A stretch of DNA of 64,000 bases from Promethearchaeota archaeon (GTDB taxonomy: Archaea > Asgardarchaeota > Lokiarchaeia > Sigyniarchaeales > SOKP01). The notes beneath the pieces are model-generated. The model made no database searches and was not told the origin of the DNA. It saw only the letters and a list, made by a program, of their open reading frames with translations. A program made the position numbers and the translations under genes. Positions 30,780 through 39,593 of this stretch are shown one piece after another; position 1 is the stretch's first letter, and each line of letters starts with the position of its first letter. The stretch is taken from positions 64,001 to 128,000 of the forward strand of contig JAHPZI010000006.1 of NCBI GenBank assembly GCA_019058295.1, given 5' to 3'.

Positions 30780-33653
30780 TCAGTTAGAAAAATTCAGAGA
30801 TTTTTTTAAATATTTAGCTGTATATGATCTTTCATTTCTAATAATCTCTTCCGGACTTCCCATAACAACAATTTCACCCCCTTCATCACCACCTTCTGGA
30901 CCTAAATCAATAATATAATCCACAGATTTTATAATTTCCATATTATGCTCAATAATTATTACGGTATTGCCTTTATCGACTAATCTTTGAAGGACTTTTA
31001 ACAAAATCTTTATATCATAAGCACTTAATCCTGTTGTTGGTTCATCTAGAATATAGAGAGTATTGCCTGTACTCGTTTTTCTTAATTCCCTAGCAATTTT
31101 TAGCCTTTGAGATTCTCCTCCACTTAAAGTTGTTGATGATTGTCCCAATTCTAGGTAACCTAAGCCAACATCCACAACAGTTTTTAGCGTTCTTTTTAGG
31201 TTTGGAAAACTATCAAAGAATTGTAAAGCGTGATCAAAAGTCATGTCCAGAACGTCTGAAATTGTTTTTTTCTTAAATTTAATTTCAAGAGTTTCCGCAT
31301 TATATCGCTTTCCTTTACATAAATCACATCTAATATAAACATCAGGAAGAAAATACATTTCCTTAAGGATGTAGCCTGTGCCTCTACATTTTCTACAATG
31401 ACCTGCCTTTGTATTAAAGCTGAATCTCCCTTTTTTATATCCTCTTTCTCTAGATTCCTGTAATGCAGCAAATATATCTCTAATATAATCCATAGCTTTA
31501 GAATAAGTTGCGGGAACTGACCTTGGTGTCTTTCCTATTGGTGATTGATCAATATTAATGATTTTATCAATGTTCTCAAATCCATTTATTTCATCAAAAT
31601 CACCTGTCCTTAATTTAGAGCTTCGAATATTAACAAGATTATGTAATCCTTTATAAAGACATTCAATAAACAAACTAGTTTTACCAGCTCCTGAAACTCC
31701 TGTTACACACGTAAATATTTCTAATGGAATTTTTACATTTACATTTTTTAAATTGTTTTCTCTAGCGCCTTTAATCTCAATAAAGTCATCTCCAATATTT
31801 CTTCTTTTTTTAGGGATTGCAATTTTCTCTTTTCCAGATAAATATTTTCCAGTTAAACTATTTGCTTTTATTATGTCTTCGACTGGCCCTTCTGCAACTA
31901 TTTCTCCACCGTGTTCTCCTGCCATTGGTCCTAAATCAATGATATGGTCAGCATTTCTAATTACAGCATCATCATGTTCTACAACTAATACAGTATTTCC
32001 TAAATTTCTCAATTTCTTTAGCATATTAACTAATCGAGAGATATCTCTCTGGTGTAAACCTACTGTAGGTTCATCTAAGACATATAAAACACCCACTAAA
32101 GTTGAACCTAATTGAGTTGCTAATCTTATTCTCTCTGCTTCTCCAACAGATAATGTATCTGATCTTCGACTTAATTGAATATAGTCTAATCCAACATTAT
32201 TCAAGAATGAGAGTCTATCCTTAATCTCTTTTAATACATCTTTTACAATAGTTTTCTGAATATCATCAATGCCTAAACTTTCAAAAAATTTTATAGAGTC
32301 TTTTACGGGTAGATTTGTTAATTCAGCGATATTTAAGTCATTAATTGTAACAGCTAAACTTTCAGGCTTTAATTTTTGCCCATTACATTTAGGACAATCA
32401 ATTCGATTCATAAAGCTCTCATAGACTTCACGAGCTCCTTCTGACGTGGTCTCCATATACCTCCGATGTAGCATAGGAATTAAACCTTCAAATGGTCGAG
32501 CCGTTTTCCAGGATGTAAAAGATTCATTATTAGAATTCCTATAGTCATTTCTATCACTAACAAAATGAAAATTTATATTTTCATCCCCTGAACCAAATAA
32601 TAATTTTTGCAATTTATTGGGATCAATTTCTTTAATTGGTGTTTCATCAATATCGAAATCATAATGTTCTGACACTTGATTTATCATTTGCCATGAATAG
32701 CCTGTTGAAGATCTAAATCCTGGTATATTTCTTATACCACTTTCTGCCAGTGGAACAAAAACATTATTTCCCAATATTAAACTATAATCAAATTCCATTA
32801 CAGTGCCCAATCCATTACAATATTTGCAACTACCATGGGGTATATTAAATGAAAACATTTTATGGTCAAGAGGAGGTAAAGAAATTTGGCAATCTAAACA
32901 TGCATAGTGTTCGGAATATATTTGCTCATTTTTTCCTATTAATTCAACAAGAACAATTCCTTCAGTTAATTCCAATGCTGTTTCTATAGAATCAGCAAGC
33001 CGAGTTTTAATGTCCTCTTTCATAACAAGCCTATCGATTATAACATTAATATTGTGTTTCACATGTTTTTCCATTGGAATTTCTTCATCAAGAGTATATT
33101 GAATCCCATCAACTTCTACACGAACATATCCTTGTTTTTTTAGATCTTGTAAAAGTTCTTTATACTCACCTTTTCGATCTCGTATTAAAGGTGCTTTAAT
33201 TATGAATTTTTGATTCTCTTTTAGAGACTTTAGAATTTGATTTATAATTTGTTGAGGTGTTTGAGGTTTGATCTCTTTTCCGCAATTTGGACAATGCGGT
33301 ATCCCTATATTTGCGAATAATAGTCTGTAATAATCGTAAATTTCAGTTACAGTTCCTACGGTACTTCGAGGATTTTTTGAAAGAGGTTTTTGCTCAATTG
33401 CGATAGCAGGTGATAACCCCTCAATAGAATCGACATCTGGTTTGTCCATCTCTCCTAGAAACTGTCTTGCATAGCTTGAGAGAGACTCCAAAAATCTTCT
33501 TTGACCCTCAGCAAATAGAGTATCAATAACTAATGAACTCTTACCACTTCCAGAAACGCCAGTAACAACTACGAGCTTATTTCTGGGAATATTTACGTCA
33601 ATATTCTTTAAATTATGCTGTCTAGCTCCCTTGATTATTATATAATCATTCAT
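30780..33653 (-). CDS. uvrA: Excinuclease ABC subunit A
   Basis: Two Walker A motifs (GVSGSGKSS, GVSGAGKT), zinc fingers, LSVGE/LSGGE signatures, LDEPT. Confidence 0.98.
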   Translation of the reverse strand: MNDYIIIKGARQHNLKNIDVNIPRNKLVVVTGVSGSGKSSLVIDTLFAEGQRRFLESLSSYARQFLGEMDKPDVDSIEGLSPAIAIEQKPLSKNPRSTVGTVTEIYDYYRLLFANIGIPHCPNCGKEIKPQTPQQIINQILKSLKENQKFIIKAPLIRDRKGEYKELLQDLKKQGYVRVEVDGIQYTLDEEIPMEKHVKHNINVIIDRLVMKEDIKTRLADSIETALELTEGIVLVELIGKNEQIYSEHYACLDCQISLPPLDHKMFSFNIPHGSCKYCNGLGTVMEFDYSLILGNNVFVPLAESGIRNIPGFRSSTGYSWQMINQVSEHYDFDIDETPIKEIDPNKLQKLLFGSGDENINFHFVSDRNDYRNSNNESFTSWKTARPFEGLIPMLHRRYMETTSEGAREVYESFMNRIDCPKCNGQKLKPESLAVTINDLNIAELTNLPVKDSIKFFESLGIDDIQKTIVKDVLKEIKDRLSFLNNVGLDYIQLSRRSDTLSVGEAERIRLATQLGSTLVGVLYVLDEPTVGLHQRDISRLVNMLKKLRNLGNTVLVVEHDDAVIRNADHIIDLGPMAGEHGGEIVAEGPVEDIIKANSLTGKYLSGKEKIAIPKKRRNIGDDFIEIKGARENNLKNVNVKIPLEIFTCVTGVSGAGKTSLFIECLYKGLHNLVNIRSSKLRTGDFDEINGFENIDKIINIDQSPIGKTPRSVPATYSKAMDYIRDIFAALQESRERGYKKGRFSFNTKAGHCRKCRGTGYILKEMYFLPDVYIRCDLCKGKRYNAETLEIKFKKKTISDVLDMTFDHALQFFDSFPNLKRTLKTVVDVGLGYLELGQSSTTLSGGESQRLKIARELRKTSTGNTLYILDEPTTGLSAYDIKILLKVLQRLVDKGNTVIIIEHNMEIIKSVDYIIDLGPEGGDEGGEIVVMGSPEEIIRNERSYTAKYLKKSLNFSN

Positions 33654-33813: not shown

Positions 33814-34536
33814 TTAATACCCCCAAGGAGGCGGATCGAATATAGTACCATCTCCTATTAAGTCTTCATCAGCATCATCAAACTCTTCATCTTCATAATA
33901 ACTTGTTTTTATAGATCTGAAATATGAAGGGAGTTCCTTAAAGAATTTATTTGGCATATATAATACTTCAAGTGATTTAAGATTAATAAATGATTTAGGA
34001 AGCGATTTTAGCTTATTATCAAGTATATTTAATTTTCTAAGATTTCTTAAATTACCTAAAGAATCTGGAAGGTATTTGAGTTTAGTATGAAATAAATTAA
34101 GATCTATCAAGGATTGTAATTCTCCTATCGGCTCGGGAATCACTTTTAATGAATTTCTACTTAAATCTAATACCTCAAGCATCTCTAAATCAAATATCTG
34201 CTTCGGAAATAATTTAAACTTGTTTTCTTTCAGACTTAGGTATTGAAGCGATGCAAGGTTGGTGATTGATTCGGGAAGAGCTTTTAACTTGTTTTTCTCT
34301 AAATCTAATTCTTTTAAGAACTTAAGTTCACAAATAGTCTTAGGTAAGAATTTTAATTTACAATTAGATAAACCTAATTTTGTTATATTCTTCCCATCAG
34401 ATTCAAATCCAAACTCAAAGAATCCTTTTCCATAGGTTCGAGTAATAGGTCTTTTTATGAGTTGCTCTAATTCTGTTAATGCCTTAGCTTCGGATTTCGG
34501 GATTTCTGCGCCTCTAAAGGAAAATAATTTACTCAT
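33814..34536 (-). CDS. Leucine-rich repeat protein (short, acidic C-terminal tail)
   Basis: About six 23-aa LRRs; N-cap similar to 16438..17832. Confidence 0.92.
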   Translation of the reverse strand: MSKLFSFRGAEIPKSEAKALTELEQLIKRPITRTYGKGFFEFGFESDGKNITKLGLSNCKLKFLPKTICELKFLKELDLEKNKLKALPESITNLASLQYLSLKENKFKLFPKQIFDLEMLEVLDLSRNSLKVIPEPIGELQSLIDLNLFHTKLKYLPDSLGNLRNLRKLNILDNKLKSLPKSFINLKSLEVLYMPNKFFKELPSYFRSIKTSYYEDEEFDDADEDLIGDGTIFDPPPWGY

Positions 34537-34588: not shown

Positions 34589-35128
34589 TTAAGGTATTCC
34601 TTGTTTGTATTTCAAGATTAATCGCTCGGTTTCTTTATACTCAGTAACCCATTGATCGCTTATAATATATGGGTCTTGATTCTTAATATAAATATAAATA
34701 AACCAAAATAACCCTTTGGAAAGACCTTTTTTGTTTTTGACTGTCTTTCTTTCTGATTTAGAATTTGTTATTATATCAAATGGAATGAAAATGCGTTTTA
34801 AGGGAATTAATGGATTAAATTTTTCAGCTAAAATATGATCTTTTCGATATTCAATTTTTCTGACTAATACCCCATTTTCATAAATGACAACATAGGTTAA
34901 GAAAAACCGAATAATCCAAAAAATAAAAAACATCCCTGAAATCAAAATAAGAGCACTAATTATTAATTTAAACACATCAAATGTATTTAGAATATTCAAG
35001 AAATTTAAGTAAAATCCGAGCAGTCCAATGGAGGTAAAAAAAAAACCCATAAAGCATAGAATAACAATTCCAAACCAAGGTCTATGTGCTTTACTTTTAA
35101 ATAATAATTTACCTCTTTTAGCTTTCAT
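34589..35128 (-). CDS. 2-TM membrane protein with probable PH-like soluble domain
   Basis: Two TM helices followed by VVIYENGVLV...FIPFDIIT, a bacterial PH-like pattern. Confidence 0.65.
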   Translation of the reverse strand: MKAKRGKLLFKSKAHRPWFGIVILCFMGFFFTSIGLLGFYLNFLNILNTFDVFKLIISALILISGMFFIFWIIRFFLTYVVIYENGVLVRKIEYRKDHILAEKFNPLIPLKRIFIPFDIITNSKSERKTVKNKKGLSKGLFWFIYIYIKNQDPYIISDQWVTEYKETERLILKYKQGIP

Positions 35129-35164: not shown

Positions 35165-35800
35165 TTATGTAAGATTTAGATTCTCCAAAGTTTTTTTTGC
35201 TATTTCCTTGTCTTCTTTTGAAAGAGAATCTAAAAAAAAATTAATTTCATCTTTTATGAGAAAAATTATATCCTCAAAAGCAAATCTAGTAAAAAATCTT
35301 GATATTTTTTCACATAATACTTTTTGTGCTTCATTCTTTAATCTCGCTACAAAATATTTTTCAAGACTTCCAGTAAAAAATTCATAGGGTATCAGAAATA
35401 GATTTTTAAAGTCTAATAATTTGGGTTCCTTAAATAACTCAATCTCGTCAGAAGGGGGAAAATAATGTATTCTAGTATCATCTCTTATAATACTCTTTAT
35501 TCCTTTGATCCTTTTCTCTAAGTTGCTCGGAGAAAGTTTATCTTTTGGTAATTTTTTTAGTTCAGCAAATAAAATTGAAGAATTTGGTCTTATATCACAA
35601 GATTGTGATAAAATAACACCCGTAGTTAAAAAAGGTCTGACATTATAACTAGCTTTTTTTGGTAATTTGTCTGAATTTAAAGACTTTAACCATTCTTCCT
35701 TTATCTTGCTAAAATCAATTTGATTTGGAGTAATTTTCGGGAGATTTTGTAAAATATCTCCTTGATTGAGATAATCAGGGATTTCTTTTATGTAAATCAT
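35165..35800 (-). CDS. Hypothetical protein with QGDIL...ILSQSCDI motif; possible PemK/MazF-like fold
   Basis: LNQGDIL...GVILSQSCDI...ILFAEL...LLDFKNLF...RL...FFTRFA. Confidence 0.55.
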   Translation of the reverse strand: MIYIKEIPDYLNQGDILQNLPKITPNQIDFSKIKEEWLKSLNSDKLPKKASYNVRPFLTTGVILSQSCDIRPNSSILFAELKKLPKDKLSPSNLEKRIKGIKSIIRDDTRIHYFPPSDEIELFKEPKLLDFKNLFLIPYEFFTGSLEKYFVARLKNEAQKVLCEKISRFFTRFAFEDIIFLIKDEINFFLDSLSKEDKEIAKKTLENLNLT

Positions 35801-35815
35801 TTAAATTCAGTATAA

Positions 35816-36427
35816 CTAATAATTTAATATTCTAGATACATCTTCTTCAAATCTAATATGATTTTCCGTTTCTTTTTCTAACATTTTCAAACAATCAATT
35901 AAATCTTTTATAGTATCAATATACTCCAGAGGAGTATTGGATAATAATGAATTTTTATAAGATTCTAGAAAATTTAGATCAATCCAATAAGTCGGACAAA
36001 TTTTCCATTGAAGAGCAGCATTTATTTTATCAAATGTCTCAGAATTTATCATATCGAGACCAAATAATTGAAATATCTCGAAAATTTGTCCAAATGTAAA
36101 AAAAATCTGCTTTTTTGTTTTTTTTGAATCTAAAAGAATATTTTCTATAAATTTATCGAAAATTTGAGGTAATATTTCTTTAAAGCCAAAATAAATTTTC
36201 TTTAAAGCCAATATTATTTTATTTAATATTTCATAAAGGAAATTAAAAAATCGTACAATAAAACTTTCACTCTCTTCAATAGCAAGGGTTGGAGCTGTGG
36301 TAATTTCTGTGCTTTCATATTTTTCAATATCCTCGAATTCTTCGAAATTTCTATAAGCATTAAATAAACTTTCTGATAAATTTTTGATAATATCTTCATT
36401 ATATAACGCAGATTGAACTTCAGTCAT
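35816..36427 (-). CDS. Hypothetical helical protein (middle gene of triad)
   Basis: ATG at 36427 lies just inside the 3' end of the upstream gene (aATGACTGA), suggesting translational coupling. Confidence 0.7.
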   Translation of the reverse strand: MTEVQSALYNEDIIKNLSESLFNAYRNFEEFEDIEKYESTEITTAPTLAIEESESFIVRFFNFLYEILNKIILALKKIYFGFKEILPQIFDKFIENILLDSKKTKKQIFFTFGQIFEIFQLFGLDMINSETFDKINAALQWKICPTYWIDLNFLESYKNSLLSNTPLEYIDTIKDLIDCLKMLEKETENHIRFEEDVSRILNY

Positions 36428-37154
36428 TTTTTTTAACACCTAAAGTTTGCCTTAAATTTTCACTCATTATATTGAAGAAATAATCAATAATGGTATCATG
36501 AACATAATTTAAATCATCAATTAAGATCTGTTCATCATCAATTGAGAATTCTTTCTGCTTTAAATAAATACTTTCTAATCGAAATAGAAAAGATTCAATT
36601 TCTTTTATTGGTATTCCACGTAATCTAATTATAAATGTATCATTTTCCAGAGTATTTATTTTAATACCGGTATGAAAATCATTAAAGTCAATGCTCCACT
36701 TTTCTGGTTTATTAATAGACAAATTAAAATAATTGCCTAGATCAAAATTCTTTTTTGGAAAAGTAAATTCATCAATATATTCCATTCTAAATTGCTCAAT
36801 TTTATCTATTTCTAGGATCTTGCATGAATTTAATACCAATTTGACTATTTCCCCTTTTATTTCATTCCAATGCGTATATTCCGTGAAAATAAATATTAGA
36901 CCATCTGAAAAAAACTGAATTTGTCCACTTTTTTCTTTATTTAAAAATCTAATAGGTCCTATTTGAATTGGGACTTTTGCCTTTATTTTAACATCATAAG
37001 GATATTCTATAATATCTAAACTAGGAGCATTAGGATAATCTTTTTTAAGAAGCTCTTCAACTTTGGACATCATTTCAAATGATATTTTCTCAGGCTTTTT
37101 AAATTTAAAATCTATCCTAAAAGTTTTAAGAGGTGGCTTTTCTATTGTTAGCAT
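36420..37154 (-). CDS. TIGR04255-like family protein
   Basis: N-terminal KPPL...F, YTHWNE, IEQFRMEYIDEF, C-terminal LNYVHD...F...SE pattern and about 245-aa size. Confidence 0.65.
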   Translation of the reverse strand: MLTIEKPPLKTFRIDFKFKKPEKISFEMMSKVEELLKKDYPNAPSLDIIEYPYDVKIKAKVPIQIGPIRFLNKEKSGQIQFFSDGLIFIFTEYTHWNEIKGEIVKLVLNSCKILEIDKIEQFRMEYIDEFTFPKKNFDLGNYFNLSINKPEKWSIDFNDFHTGIKINTLENDTFIIRLRGIPIKEIESFLFRLESIYLKQKEFSIDDEQILIDDLNYVHDTIIDYFFNIMSENLRQTLGVKKND

Positions 37155-37332: not shown

Positions 37333-37470
37333 CTAATAGGTTTTTCTTTTGTTCGATTTTTCATCTCTCCTTGATTTACTTGATTGAAGGAAATGATTAA
37401 TAAGGTAAATAATAGCGGAAACAAATCCAATAATTGCTGTTGCTAGATTAATCAAATCTGAGATATTCAT
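37333..37470 (-). CDS. 45-aa single-TM peptide with basic C-terminus
   Basis: MNISDLINLATAIIGFVSAIIYLINHFLQSSKSRRDEKSNKRKTY; below the ORF-track cutoff. Confidence 0.45.
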   Translation of the reverse strand: MNISDLINLATAIIGFVSAIIYLINHFLQSSKSRRDEKSNKRKTY

Positions 37471-37607: not shown

Positions 37608-38639
37608 ATGATTAATAAAGCAAATATCTATAGCATTTCTCTTATCATAGAGTATCTGTGGTATAATCCTCGTCGTAAAATGGAGGATTTAATTAAAAAT
37701 AAAGTAAGAAGTAAGAATACTTTAAAACGCTATTTATATGGTCAGAGATATGGATATAGTGACGACGAAAGCTTAATAGATAATGGAATTTTAATTGCTC
37801 ATTCTACAACAAAGAAAAAAAGTAGAAAAACTGGTAAAATAAAATCTTACCCTGATGAATTTGAAGTTAATCAAGATTGGTTAATTTCGAATATTAATAA
37901 ATTTCCTAATATAAAAAAAGTAATCCGTTTTGGTAATGAGGATTTTGGATATGAATTCTATACTGTTGATGAAGCACGAAAAAAAATCGAAGAAGATAAG
38001 GGATATAGAGAAATGGATGCAATTTATCAAATTTATGAGAGTATCTTTGCAAATTCTATTTCTCATGAAATAAAACAAAATCCCAATTCAAAGTCATTTT
38101 ATTTCTCTGAAGAACAAAGAATTGCAAAAAGCTGGTTGATATATGGATTATTACTTATTTCTTTCGCATATAACCCAGATTTATGGAATTCATTAGAAAA
38201 AGTGGATGATTTTAATTTTGAAATGACAATTAAAATAGATATTCCAAAAGAATATCAAAATGATTTCTTTAATGCTTTTCAAAAAGTAAGGGATTTTTGC
38301 ATGAAAAAAAAACAGTTACCTTCTTCCTTAAAATTTCCCTTAGAAAAAAGTTTAGCACATATTCGTAGAATGAGTAAAGGACTTCTTATTAAAAATCCAC
38401 CAAAGACGTCAAAGGAGGATAAAAAAGAAATACCATTCCATAATGATCTTGATGTGTTTGAGGCTGTCGCATATATGCAACAAGGAACTTATGAGGAAAA
38501 TAAAAATAAGATTAATGCTGAAAATAAAAAGGATTTAAGAGAACTCATCGAACTTTTAAAAATATCAAAACCTTACTACCAAGGAAGCCAAGAATTAAAA
38601 TCGATTAATAAGCAATTGAAAAAAGTAAAAAAAAAATAA
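37608..38639 (+). CDS. Hypothetical protein with probable N-terminal winged helix-turn-helix
   Basis: IIEYLWYNPRRKMEDLIKNKVRSKNTLKRYL...LIDNGIL followed by a basic wing. Confidence 0.6.
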   Translation: MINKANIYSISLIIEYLWYNPRRKMEDLIKNKVRSKNTLKRYLYGQRYGYSDDESLIDNGILIAHSTTKKKSRKTGKIKSYPDEFEVNQDWLISNINKFPNIKKVIRFGNEDFGYEFYTVDEARKKIEEDKGYREMDAIYQIYESIFANSISHEIKQNPNSKSFYFSEEQRIAKSWLIYGLLLISFAYNPDLWNSLEKVDDFNFEMTIKIDIPKEYQNDFFNAFQKVRDFCMKKKQLPSSLKFPLEKSLAHIRRMSKGLLIKNPPKTSKEDKKEIPFHNDLDVFEAVAYMQQGTYEENKNKINAENKKDLRELIELLKISKPYYQGSQELKSINKQLKKVKKK

Positions 38640-38704: not shown

Positions 38705-39376
38705 TTAGGGAAACATTTTAAAAAAATTTCTTAATCCAATAATCATAATCTTTACTTCCTCTTCAGAATAATTATTATAATTACCATGTGCTGCATCATT
38801 CCTTATGCCTAACCAAGCTGTCACTTGTTTCATCTGAGTTTTTGAGTAAACATTTTCCCCTTTCAAATCTGAATTCATCTGATCAGCTTTTTTAGGTTTT
38901 ACTCTCCCAGATGTCGTAATTTCTATATCAATGCCATTTTTTTCACATAGCTTTCTTAGATGTTCTTCTAAGGTACTTCCTGCTATAACAGCAGAAGCAT
39001 CTTTATATTTCTCATCTAAAAGATATTGTGCCATATCTAAATAATCAGAAAAAATATCTCCATGTATTAATTCTGATACTGTCTTAAGGTAATCTTGTTG
39101 CAAATCCTTATATAATGCAATTAAGGCTCCTTTAACAAATTTAAAGCGATTTACAATTAATTTATCACTTTCAAAATATTCTTCAATTCTTATATAATAT
39201 TCTGATTTTTTACCTGCAATCCTATCTATCACTGATAATGCTCTTGTAATACAAGTACTTAAAAATTCTCTACTTTTATTTACTGAACCAGCATATTGAC
39301 CATTCTTCACACTATTAATATCACTTAAAATTTCTTCAATTTGTTTAATAAAAACCTTATTTAATTCTTCTACTAT
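38705..39376 (-). CDS. HEPN/DUF4145-like protein
   Basis: ASAVIAGSTLEEHLRKL and RNDAAH (RxxxxH). The frame is open 22 codons upstream of the track's GTG (39310) to an ATA preceded by AGGTGA. Confidence 0.8.
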   Translation of the reverse strand: MVEELNKVFIKQIEEILSDINSVKNGQYAGSVNKSREFLSTCITRALSVIDRIAGKKSEYYIRIEEYFESDKLIVNRFKFVKGALIALYKDLQQDYLKTVSELIHGDIFSDYLDMAQYLLDEKYKDASAVIAGSTLEEHLRKLCEKNGIDIEITTSGRVKPKKADQMNSDLKGENVYSKTQMKQVTAWLGIRNDAAHGNYNNYSEEEVKIMIIGLRNFFKMFP

Positions 39377-39470: not shown

Positions 39471-39593
39471 TTATAAGTTCCCACCCCCACTTACCCCCAT
39501 AATCACAACTAATTTATTTCTGGGAATAATTACATTAATATTCTTTAAATTGTTCTGCCTAGCCCCTTTAATTATAATGGGATTATCAGTCAT
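39471..39593 (-). pseudogene. uvrA: Truncated uvrA 5' fragment (40 codons)
   Basis: [40 protein letters not shown] versus intact [39 protein letters not shown]. Confidence 0.92.

What the first reader, a model, noticed from the sequence alone, without database searches (positions are those of the whole stretch)
35165..37154. Three-gene TIGR04255-like / helical / PemK-like operon: candidate tripartite toxin-antitoxin(-chaperone) antiviral system
Seen: three co-oriented genes inside the uvrA island, with an 8-bp start/stop overlap and a 15-bp gap. Gene 1 has the motifs of the sporadically distributed, uncharacterised TIGR04255 family. Gene 2 has an acidic, Thr/Ser-rich, probably disordered N-terminal part followed by helices. 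Gene 3 has QGDIL...GVILSQSCDI...ILFAEL, which parallels the GD.....VVLS...V.P strand layout of MazF/PemK endoribonucleases. Inference: gene 3 is a toxin, gene 2 a labile antitoxin and gene 1 a chaperone or sensor, analogous to SecB-dependent TAC systems. I know of no characterisation of such a triad in Asgard archaea. This is the best candidate for a new system in the window.
Basis: inference. Interest (0 to 1): 0.8.

Follow-up and report, generated by a model that had tools for sequence, protein, structure and literature searches.

The report
TIGR04255-led three-gene toxin-like cassette
Three tightly packed genes on a foreign island in a Lokiarchaeia-type (Asgard) genome form one copy of a mobile cassette found in many genomes, for which I found no published description; it looks like a three-part toxin-antitoxin or antiviral module whose last gene has the shape of the MazF poison, but no function has been tested.

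Summary
Three co-oriented minus-strand genes lie at 36420-37154, 35816-36427 and 35165-35800, with an 8-bp overlap and a 15-bp gap.

- **Gene 1** is a genuine TIGR04255 protein (47.4 bits, cut-off 30).
- **Gene 3**, modelled at pLDDT 90.8, has a CcdB/MazF-type core. The top 13 fold matches are all toxins of that class (best: MazF, Z 9.6), then Z drops to 3.7.
  - It has no sequence similarity to canonical MazF (hhalign probability 0.4%).
  - It has its own signature, QGD...Q-x-C-D...R, with a Cys invariant in all 158 representatives examined.
- **Gene 2** is acidic (pI 4.6) and the fastest-evolving of the three.

The trio, and only the trio, recurs in unrelated contexts in Lokiarchaeia, an Odinarchaeota genome (genes 2 and 3 apparently fused) and Melainabacteria. 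In 400 Asgard genomes, 18 of 20 gene-3 relatives have a TIGR04255 gene just upstream.

Other TIGR04255 cassettes carry a GNAT protein, a weak HEPN-like protein or unknown proteins in third place.

Gene 1 models as a duplicated, TBP-like alpha/beta fold. Nothing here supports a SecB-like chaperone.

Toxicity, neutralisation and antiviral activity are inferred, not shown. This scan has already reported TIGR04255-led trios on other DNA (504 notes). I found no paper that describes them.

The parts
36420..37154 (-). Gene 1: TIGR04255-family protein, 244 aa. Predicted duplicated TBP-like alpha/beta fold. It is the conserved first gene of the cassette.
   Evidence: ORF. TIGR04255 47.4 bits against cut-off 30. 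AF2 model at pLDDT 84.5. Fold matches AdoMetDC/TBP/RepDE at E about 1e-4 and best Z 7.2. Single copy in this genome.
35816..36427 (-). Gene 2: acidic middle protein, 203 aa (207 aa if the GTG at 36439 is the start). The N-terminal ~80 residues are variable and acidic; the C-terminal ~120 residues are conserved. Candidate neutraliser/adaptor.
   Evidence: ORF. No family in Pfam, NCBIfam, PADLOC or PHROGs. 13 homologues. Conservation pattern. pI 4.57. Least conserved of the three in every locus compared.
35165..35800 (-). Gene 3: 211-aa protein with a CcdB/MazF-type core (about residues 9-170), two inserted helices and a C-terminal helical tail. Signature QGD(13-15), Q66-x-C68-D69, R153, R172. 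Candidate toxin/effector.
   Evidence: ORF. AF2 model at pLDDT 90.8. Foldseek top hits are all MazF. VIA: MazF Z 9.6, CcdB 7.7, Kid 7.5. Viral library: PemK-like proteins on top. 308 representative relatives. Conservation. Core pI 9.4.
33541..33641 (.). Context: left copy of the 101-nt direct repeat that bounds the ~5.9-kb island carrying the cassette. It lies in the present uvrA 5' end.
   Evidence: (repeat family D1) and alignment.
39478..39578 (.). Context: right copy of the repeat. It lies inside a 40-codon remnant of an older uvrA N-terminus (39471-39593, minus strand), next to uvrB.

Best explanation
The three genes are one copy of a horizontally mobile, three-part toxin-antitoxin-like cassette. 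Such cassettes are typically headed by a TIGR04255 protein.

Gene 3 is the effector. It is a basic protein built on the CcdB/MazF toxin fold, and it most likely acts on nucleic acid (RNA cleavage is the leading guess). Its conserved residues differ from MazF's: QGD, Q-x-C-D and two Arg.

Gene 2 is an acidic, fast-evolving protein. Its conserved C-terminal part is matched to the toxin type and probably holds gene 3 inactive.

Gene 1 is a TBP-like-fold protein that stays constant while the downstream genes are exchanged. It is the common control component, acting as a sensor, a stabiliser of gene 2 or a regulator. When the balance is disturbed, by virus infection or by loss of the island, gene 3 would be freed and would stop growth.

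Shown: gene order and coupling, family membership of gene 1, the predicted fold of gene 3, conservation and mobility of the trio, and variability of the third gene.

Inferred: toxicity, neutralisation by gene 2, the role of gene 1, and any antiviral effect.
For: 1. Tight operon: an 8-bp overlap and a 15-bp gap.
2. Gene 1 is TIGR04255.
3. Gene 3 fold: the 13 best of 48,161 representative chains are all CcdB/MazF/Kid or ToxN-class toxins (Z 9.6 to 4.0), and the next row is Z 3.7. Foldseek agrees on PDB and on viral proteins.
4. The trio alone is shared among loci with unrelated flanks. Identities for gene 1/gene 2/gene 3 are 75/59/75, 50/45/59, 39/39/54, 32/29/36 and 27/30/35; in two further loci they are 25/no hit/37 and 28/no hit/33. 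None of the window's neighbouring genes recurs (contexts).
5. In 400 Asgard genomes, 18 of 20 gene-3-family places have a TIGR04255 match on the same strand 450-1300 bp upstream. Bacterial and metagenomic trios also pass the TIGR04255 cut-off, at 117 and 114 bits.
6. Patchy distribution: 19 of 400 genomes carry the gene 3 family, and none of the 9 other genomes of the same genus does.
7. It sits on an island of 26% GC against 32-33% for uvrA and uvrB, bounded by a 101-nt repeat.
8. Charge pattern: gene 2 has pI 4.6 and the gene 3 core has pI 9.4.
9. All 28 Asgard TIGR04255 genes examined are followed by two packed same-strand ORFs. The third gene is usually a QGD...CD protein, but once a GNAT (above Pfam cut-offs), once a weak HEPN-like protein (E 0.016), and five times an unknown ~150-aa family.
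10. Middle proteins resemble each other only within a third-gene type, and in their C-terminal parts.
11. An Odinarchaeota protein of 616 aa carries the gene 3 domain at 233-437, behind an N-terminal part weakly like gene 2 (hhalign E 0.0015, probability 17%).
12. Some relatives lie beside defence or mobility genes: a type IIG restriction enzyme and VapB, a Piwi protein, an integrase.
Against: - No experiment exists, and none of the three proteins matches a PADLOC defence model.
- Gene 3 has no detectable sequence relation to MazF. The position I matched to MazF's catalytic Arg is not conserved.
- An invariant Cys is unusual for this class of RNase, so the activity may be something else.
- Fold similarity alone does not prove toxicity.
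- Gene 1's fold matches are middling (Z <= 7.2, which the tool says is common for unrelated folds) and give no function.
- One gene-3 relative, in Levyibacteriota, is preceded by DUF6941 plus a 141-aa gene rather than TIGR04255. The link is therefore not absolute.
- The evidence that the Odin fusion contains a gene-2 homologue is weak.
Confidence: 0.55

Rival explanations
1. Genes 2 and 3 form an ordinary two-part toxin-antitoxin pair. Gene 1 is only the operon's DNA-binding autoregulator, its TBP-like saddle replacing the DNA-binding domain that gene 2 lacks. It would be neither sensor nor chaperone.
For: Gene 2 has no recognisable DNA-binding domain. TBP proteins are among gene 1's better Foldseek matches, at E 3e-4 to 1e-3. 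Gene 1 is always first in the operon.
Against: The TBP-like arrangement is shared by many proteins that do not bind DNA, such as AdoMetDC and guanidino kinases, which score equally well. No DNA-binding residues or operator repeats were identified. Gene 1 is acidic (pI 5.5), which is unusual for a DNA binder.
Confidence: 0.15
2. Gene 3 is not a growth-arresting toxin. It is a Cys-dependent enzyme or binding protein that reuses the SH3-like CcdB/MazF barrel, and the trio carries out some accessory cellular function, such as modification or turnover of a specific target.
For: Cys68 is invariant in 158 of 158 representatives, with Q66 and D69 beside it. There is no sequence link to MazF. The position I matched to MazF's catalytic Arg is variable. 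No PADLOC hit.
Against: Every strong structural match is a toxin. The third position is filled elsewhere by a GNAT and a HEPN-like protein, both of which are toxin-type domains. The distribution is patchy and island-borne, which is typical of selfish or defence modules.
Confidence: 0.15
3. The cassette mainly stabilises the mobile island (post-segregational killing) and has no role in virus defence.
For: It sits on an inserted island bounded by repeats. In Lokiarchaeum ossiferum a relative lies near an integrase. No relative was found on viral contigs or in the defence model library.
Against: The trio moves independently of this island's other genes. Some relatives lie beside restriction and Argonaute-type genes. 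The two roles do not exclude each other.
Confidence: 0.15

Closest known systems
MazF/PemK/Kid and CcdB toxins (CcdB/MazF superfamily; Pfam PF02452 for PemK)
   Same: The predicted core fold of gene 3 matches: MazF Z 9.6 over 108 of 115 residues, CcdB Z 7.7, Kid Z 7.5. It has a Gly-Asp at the start of the first strand, a basic core, and an acidic partner gene encoded just upstream.
   Different: No sequence similarity. Gene 3 is about twice as long, with two inserted helices and a helical tail. The position I matched to MazF's catalytic Arg is not conserved, and a Q-x-C-D motif with an invariant Cys is. The partner is not a MazE/PemI-type antitoxin. There is an obligatory-looking third gene.
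Toxin-antitoxin-chaperone (TAC) systems, e.g. M. tuberculosis HigB1-HigA1-SecB(TA) (from my own knowledge of the literature)
   Same: A three-gene operon in which a third protein accompanies a toxin and an antitoxin-like protein.
   Different: Gene 1 has no SecB match by HMM, and its model is a 244-aa duplicated TBP-like fold. The gene order has the third component first. No chaperone-addiction segment has been identified in gene 2.
Hyperpromiscuous antitoxin/partner domains such as Panacea (DUF4065) (from my own knowledge of the literature)
   Same: One conserved component is combined with many unrelated toxin types. Here TIGR04255 occurs with QGD/CD proteins, a GNAT, a HEPN-like protein and unknown families.
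   Different: TIGR04255 is a separate gene, not a domain of the antitoxin. There is no DUF4065 match. A variable middle gene lies between it and the toxin.
GajC of type II Gabija: a split MazF-like domain with a helical insertion used as a defence effector (PMC13069673)
   Same: A MazF-like fold interrupted by helices and recruited as the effector of a multi-gene system.
   Different: The partner is different (a UvrD-like helicase, GajB).
Type III toxins ToxN, CptN, AbiQ
   Same: Weaker fold resemblance: CptN Z 5.3, ToxN Z 4.0, AbiQ Z 3.1.
   Different: These need a tandem-repeat RNA antitoxin upstream. No such array is present and there is no Rfam match.

Membership tests
TIGR04255 (NCBIfam) - gene 1 | Whole-protein score above the curated cut-off of 30 bits, with end-to-end profile coverage | tested here: met
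   47.4 bits, residues 4-239 on profile 2-252 of 252. Confirmed on the genome at 46.9 bits.
PemK/MazF (PF02452) - gene 3 | Match to the family HMM, or profile-level sequence similarity | tested here: not met
   No PemK hit at E<=1. hhalign of the gene 3 family against 21 Lokiarchaeial MazF proteins gives probability 0.4%. No PDB sequence match.
CcdB/MazF structural superfamily - gene 3 | SH3-like barrel with a C-terminal helix that superposes on solved MazF/CcdB/Kid structures | tested here: met
   Predicted model only (pLDDT 90.8). MazF Z 9.6, rmsd 3.4, 108 of 115 residues; CcdB Z 7.7; Kid Z 7.5; the next unrelated row is Z 3.7. Foldseek probability 1.00 for MazF chains.
PemK/MazF - gene 3 | Catalytic Arg in the strand 1-2 loop (Arg-Pro) and Thr/Ser at the end of strand 3 | tested here: inconclusive
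   Pro56 is invariant, but the preceding residue varies (R, K, E, S, Q, F) in the 24-sequence alignment.
MazEF/PemIK module | A small MazE/PemI-type (AbrB or RHH) antitoxin encoded next to the toxin | tested here: not met
   Gene 2 is 203 aa and matches no antitoxin family in Pfam or NCBIfam at E<=1.
TAC (toxin-antitoxin-chaperone) | The third component is a SecB-like chaperone | tested here: inconclusive
   No SecB HMM hit for gene 1 at E<=1. The model is a duplicated beta-alpha-beta4-alpha fold of 244 aa. Its fold matches are listed.
TAC (toxin-antitoxin-chaperone) | The antitoxin carries a C-terminal chaperone-addiction segment that the chaperone binds | not testable with these tools
Type III toxin-antitoxin (ToxIN/AbiQ) | A tandem-repeat RNA antitoxin upstream of the toxin gene | tested here: not met
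   The only array is 22 nt x 2.6 copies, inside the gene 2 coding sequence. No Rfam family at gathering score.
Known anti-phage systems (PADLOC-DB 2.0.0) | Match of any component to a defence-system model | tested here: not met
   No hit at E<=1 for any of the three genes or their four neighbours.

The most novel reading that the evidence does not exclude
TIGR04255-led trios are a large, unpublished class of three-part toxin-antitoxin or antiviral systems found in both archaea and bacteria. In them, a TBP-like-fold protein is the shared sensor or controller for interchangeable toxins. The QGD...Q-x-C-D proteins are a new, Cys-dependent enzymatic branch of the CcdB/MazF fold, with a target or chemistry unlike MazF or CcdB.
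Probability: 0.3. Interest if true: 0.8.

Novelty: new variant of a known kind. Interest (0 to 1): 0.6.

Why it matters
If the model is right, it assigns a role to TIGR04255, a sporadically distributed family with no known function. It would define a modular three-gene system that spans Asgard archaea and bacteria.

It would also add a divergent branch, marked by an invariant Cys, to the CcdB/MazF toxin fold. The 2026 Asgard defensome survey lists only canonical MazEF in Lokiarchaeales (PMC13700489), so this would extend the accessory or defence repertoire of the archaea closest to eukaryotes.

The cassette is small enough for a direct test of toxicity, rescue and phage challenge using bacterial homologues.

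Tried and rejected
- **Complex prediction, gene 3 with gene 2:** no answer (score 0.30, mark 0.32). This is not evidence either way. Five earlier attempts found the machine busy (include these).
- **Family libraries:** Pfam, PADLOC and NCBIfam gave nothing for genes 2 and 3. PHROGs gave only phrog_4575, of unknown function, for gene 3 at E 1.7e-6.
- **PDB sequence searches:** single proteins and profiles found nothing meaningful.
- **SecB idea for gene 1:** no SecB chain appears among the listed Foldseek or VIA rows. That absence is not proof.
- **Mobile-element collections:** tblastn of the Melainabacteria relative against plasmid and phage collections found no match. The IMG/VR scan found none. 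The GTDB contig pattern scan found only three close Promethearchaeota loci.
- **Fused or longer gene-3 relatives (330-616 aa):** their extensions have no Pfam domain above cut-off.
- **RNA features:** no ToxI-like RNA array, Rfam family or tRNA near the island.
- **Literature:**
  - No full-text hits for TIGR04255, CHP04255 or IPR026349.
  - The Gerdes 2024 HicA paper, named in an earlier scan note, describes long HicB proteins but no TIGR04255 partner.
- **Promoter reading upstream of gene 1:** left aside because the region is too AT-rich for a motif to carry weight.
Full report
**1. Observation**

The ORF scan shows three minus-strand genes exactly where reported:
- Gene 1: 36420-37154, 244 aa.
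- Gene 2: 35816-36427, 203 aa from its ATG.
- Gene 3: 35165-35800, 211 aa.

The gene 1/gene 2 overlap is 8 bp and the gene 2/gene 3 gap is 15 bp. A GTG at 36439 is an alternative start for gene 2. Several homologues begin MLKKL, which is what follows that GTG, so the overlap may be 20 bp. The quoted gene 3 motifs are present: QGDIL at 13-17, GVILSQSCDI at 61-70, ILFAEL at 76-81. The first 55 residues of gene 2 carry a net charge of -11.5.

**2. What the three proteins are**

*Gene 1.* It matches NCBIfam TIGR04255 end to end at 47.4 bits against a cut-off of 30. It is the only copy in this 3.2-Mb, 79%-complete assembly. It has no hit in Pfam, PADLOC or PHROGs.

An AlphaFold2 model built from 19 sequences (pLDDT 84.5) shows two successive beta-alpha-beta4-alpha units, a TBP-like pseudo-dimer.
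- Foldseek's best matches are AdoMetDC, TATA-binding proteins and RepDE, at E about 1e-4.
- The wide structural search peaks at Z 7.2. The tool itself warns that this level is common for unrelated folds.
- The fold class is therefore indicated but no function follows.

*Gene 3.* It has no family in Pfam, NCBIfam or PADLOC. Its model, from 24 sequences, is confident (pLDDT 90.8, pTM 0.84).
- Against 48,161 representative PDB chains, the top 13 are all toxins of the CcdB/MazF or ToxN class. S. aureus MazF gives Z 9.6 (108 of 115 residues, rmsd 3.4), M. tuberculosis MazF-mt3 9.0, CcdB 7.7, Kid 7.5, CptN 5.3 and ToxN 4.0.
- The list then falls to Z 3.7.
- Foldseek on PDB lists only MazF chains at the top (E about 1e-3, probability 1.00). 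Foldseek on viral proteins lists PemK-like proteins.

It is not right at the level of family.
- There is no PemK_toxin hit at E<=1.
- A profile-profile comparison with 21 canonical MazF proteins, which I extracted from Lokiarchaeial genomes, gives probability 0.4%.
- Relative to MazF, gene 3 has two inserted helices (residues 30-41 and 94-106) and a C-terminal helical tail.
- By my secondary-structure matching, MazF's Arg-Pro corresponds to residues 55-56 of gene 3. Pro56 is invariant but the residue before it varies.
- Across 158 representatives of the wider family, the conserved polar residues are Q13-G14-D15, Q66, C68 (158 of 158), D69 (96%), R153 (83%) and R172 (96%).
- An invariant Cys is not a feature of known MazF or CcdB toxins, so the chemistry or the target may differ.

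*Gene 2.* It has no family and only 13 word-indexed homologues. Its first ~80 residues are variable and acidic. Residues ~84-200 are conserved, with motifs EILP..FD.F, FGL and LQWK.

**3. The trio is the conserved unit, and it is mobile**

Relatives of gene 3 were traced to their contigs. In Lokiarchaeia-type contigs with entirely different flanks, the same order recurs, roughly 240 aa, then 160-200 aa, then 210-236 aa. The flanks include:
- a subtilase and an ABC ATPase;
- a nitroreductase and an M20 peptidase;
- PEMT with a type IIG restriction enzyme and VapB;
- an integrase island in Lokiarchaeum ossiferum.

The upstream genes pass the TIGR04255 cut-off (46-54 bits). Two more trios do so more strongly: a Melainabacteria one (117 bits) and a second metagenomic one on a long, unnamed contig (114 bits).

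A tblastn of all nine genes of the window's island region against eight such loci finds only genes 1, 2 and 3. Gene 2 is least conserved in six of the seven distinct loci, and in two of those it is undetectable:

| Locus | Gene 1 % | Gene 2 % | Gene 3 % |
|---|---|---|---|
| L087 (L012 is the same) | 75 | 59 | 75 |
| L014 | 50 | 45 | 59 |
| L003 | 39 | 39 | 54 |
| L088 | 32 | 29 | 36 |
| L009 | 27 | 30 | 35 |
| L001 | 25 | no hit | 37 |
| L011 | 28 | no hit | 33 |

In a search of 400 Asgard genomes:
- The gene 3 family occurs in 19 genomes (20 places), and in none of the 9 other genomes of the same genus.
- TIGR04255 occurs in 44 genomes (49 places).
- Comparing coordinates, 18 of the 20 gene-3 places have a TIGR04255 match on the same strand 450-1300 bp upstream.
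- The two exceptions are a 75-aa fragment and a weak partial match.

One counter-example exists. A Levyibacteriota relative is preceded by a DUF6941 protein and a 141-aa gene instead of TIGR04255.

An Odinarchaeota protein of 616 aa carries the gene 3 domain at 233-437. Its first 235 residues align weakly with the conserved part of gene 2 (hhalign E 0.0015, probability 17%). It follows a TIGR04255-like fragment at the contig edge and sits beside a Piwi gene. If that fusion is real, it argues that genes 2 and 3 act together.

In the window, the trio lies on a ~5.9-kb insertion.
- A 101-nt direct repeat links the present uvrA 5' end (33541-33641) to 39478-39578.
- At the second site, a 40-codon remnant of an older uvrA N-terminus survives next to uvrB.
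- The island has 26% GC, against 32-33% for uvrA and uvrB.

**4. TIGR04255 heads cassettes with exchangeable third genes**

Earlier notes of this scan made this claim, and I tested it within Asgard genomes. All 28 TIGR04255 genes examined are followed by two tightly packed same-strand ORFs. Among the 24 third genes not already counted as close gene-3 relatives:
- About half carry QGD and CD motifs or match the gene 3 profile weakly.
- One is a GNAT acetyltransferase above Pfam cut-offs.
- One is a weak, near full-length HEPN match (E 0.016, below cut-off).
- Five form an unknown ~150-aa family.

Middle proteins resemble each other only within a third-gene type, and the similarity lies in their C-terminal parts. 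This fits a toxin-matched neutralising domain. I found no shared segment across types that could mark a common gene-1-binding part, but BLAST sensitivity is low for such short, fast-evolving proteins.

**5. Mechanism**

The best-supported reading is a three-part toxin-antitoxin-like module.
- Gene 3 has a basic core (pI 9.4) on a toxin fold and is the effector.
- Gene 2 is acidic (pI 4.6), fast-evolving and matched to the toxin type. It is the neutraliser.
- Gene 1 is the constant element. It would be a sensor, a stabiliser of gene 2 or a regulator.

The steps that are shown are the anatomy, the family and fold assignments, the conservation, the mobility and the modularity. Toxicity, binding and the biological role (island maintenance or virus defence) are inferred. 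I put this at 0.55.

The rivals are:
- a classical two-gene pair plus a TBP-like DNA-binding regulator (0.15);
- a non-toxic, Cys-dependent enzyme function (0.15);
- a pure addiction role for the island (0.15).

The third rival concerns biological role rather than mechanism and overlaps with the main reading.

**6. Comparison with what is known, and novelty**

- The closest fold relatives are MazF/Kid/CcdB, but gene 3 fails the sequence test for PF02452 and its partner is not MazE-like.
- The closest system-level analogy is the TAC family, but gene 1 shows no SecB features.
- Combining one conserved component with many toxins recalls hyperpromiscuous antitoxin domains such as Panacea (from my own knowledge).
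- A split MazF-like effector with a helical insertion was recently reported in type II Gabija (PMC13069673).
- Full-text searches for TIGR04255 and its synonyms returned nothing.
- The 2026 Asgard defensome survey mentions only canonical MazEF (PMC13700489).

I therefore rate this a new variant of a known kind (multi-component toxin-antitoxin systems), apparently undescribed in the literature I could search. This scan has already reported the same class on other DNA (504 notes in at least 374 genomes), and the same stretch was flagged in an overlapping reading.

**7. Limits**

All structures are predictions. The complex prediction for genes 2 and 3 gave no verdict. Counts across related genomes are not independent. 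The assembly is incomplete (79%).

Noticed in passing
window 33541-33641 and 39478-39578; remnant ORF 39471-39593 (-): A ~5.9-kb island of 26% GC is inserted in the 5' end of uvrA. It is bounded by a 101-nt direct repeat (75% identity). A 40-codon remnant of the former uvrA N-terminus remains next to uvrB, so the island supplies the present uvrA start.
   Followed up: partly
window 38705-39310 (-): A 201-aa protein just below the HEPN_RiboL-PSP cut-off (27.0 against 28.4 bits), with an RNDAAH (Rx4H) motif. It may be a second toxin or defence gene on the same island.
   Followed up: no
window 33814-34536 (-) and 34589-35128 (-): A 240-aa leucine-rich-repeat protein (LRR_14, 93 bits) and a 179-aa predicted membrane protein lie on the island downstream of gene 3. 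The membrane gene starts 36 bp after the gene 3 stop, but neither gene recurs next to other trios.
   Followed up: partly
window 37608-38639 (+): A 343-aa orphan transcribed divergently from the trio, with only a weak EarA-like winged-helix hint (E 0.055). It is not found next to other trios.
   Followed up: no
window 37333-37470 (-): A 45-codon ORF encoding a hydrophobic peptide with a basic tail, upstream of gene 1. I read it by eye from the sequence and did not check it further.
   Followed up: no
L010:337-2187 (Odinarchaeota contig): A 616-aa protein that appears to fuse a gene-2-like N-terminal part to the gene 3 domain and a further 180-aa extension. It sits beside a Piwi (Argonaute-type) gene.
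   Followed up: partly
L090:3127-4651 (Levyibacteriota contig): A gene-3-family protein preceded by a DUF6941 protein and a 141-aa gene instead of TIGR04255. This looks like an alternative first component.
   Followed up: partly
L040, L044, L049, L050, L051 (Asgard TIGR04255 loci): A recurrent ~150-aa third gene with no family match, each paired with a related 203-266-aa middle protein. This appears to be another toxin type in TIGR04255 cassettes.
   Followed up: partly
P0074, P0079, P0083-P0085, P0093, P0095, P0104; L011:5001-6167: Many gene-3 relatives of 330-390 aa carry a C-terminal extension of about 170 aa with no Pfam match. In L011 the middle region is split into 60-aa and 107-aa genes.
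   Followed up: partly
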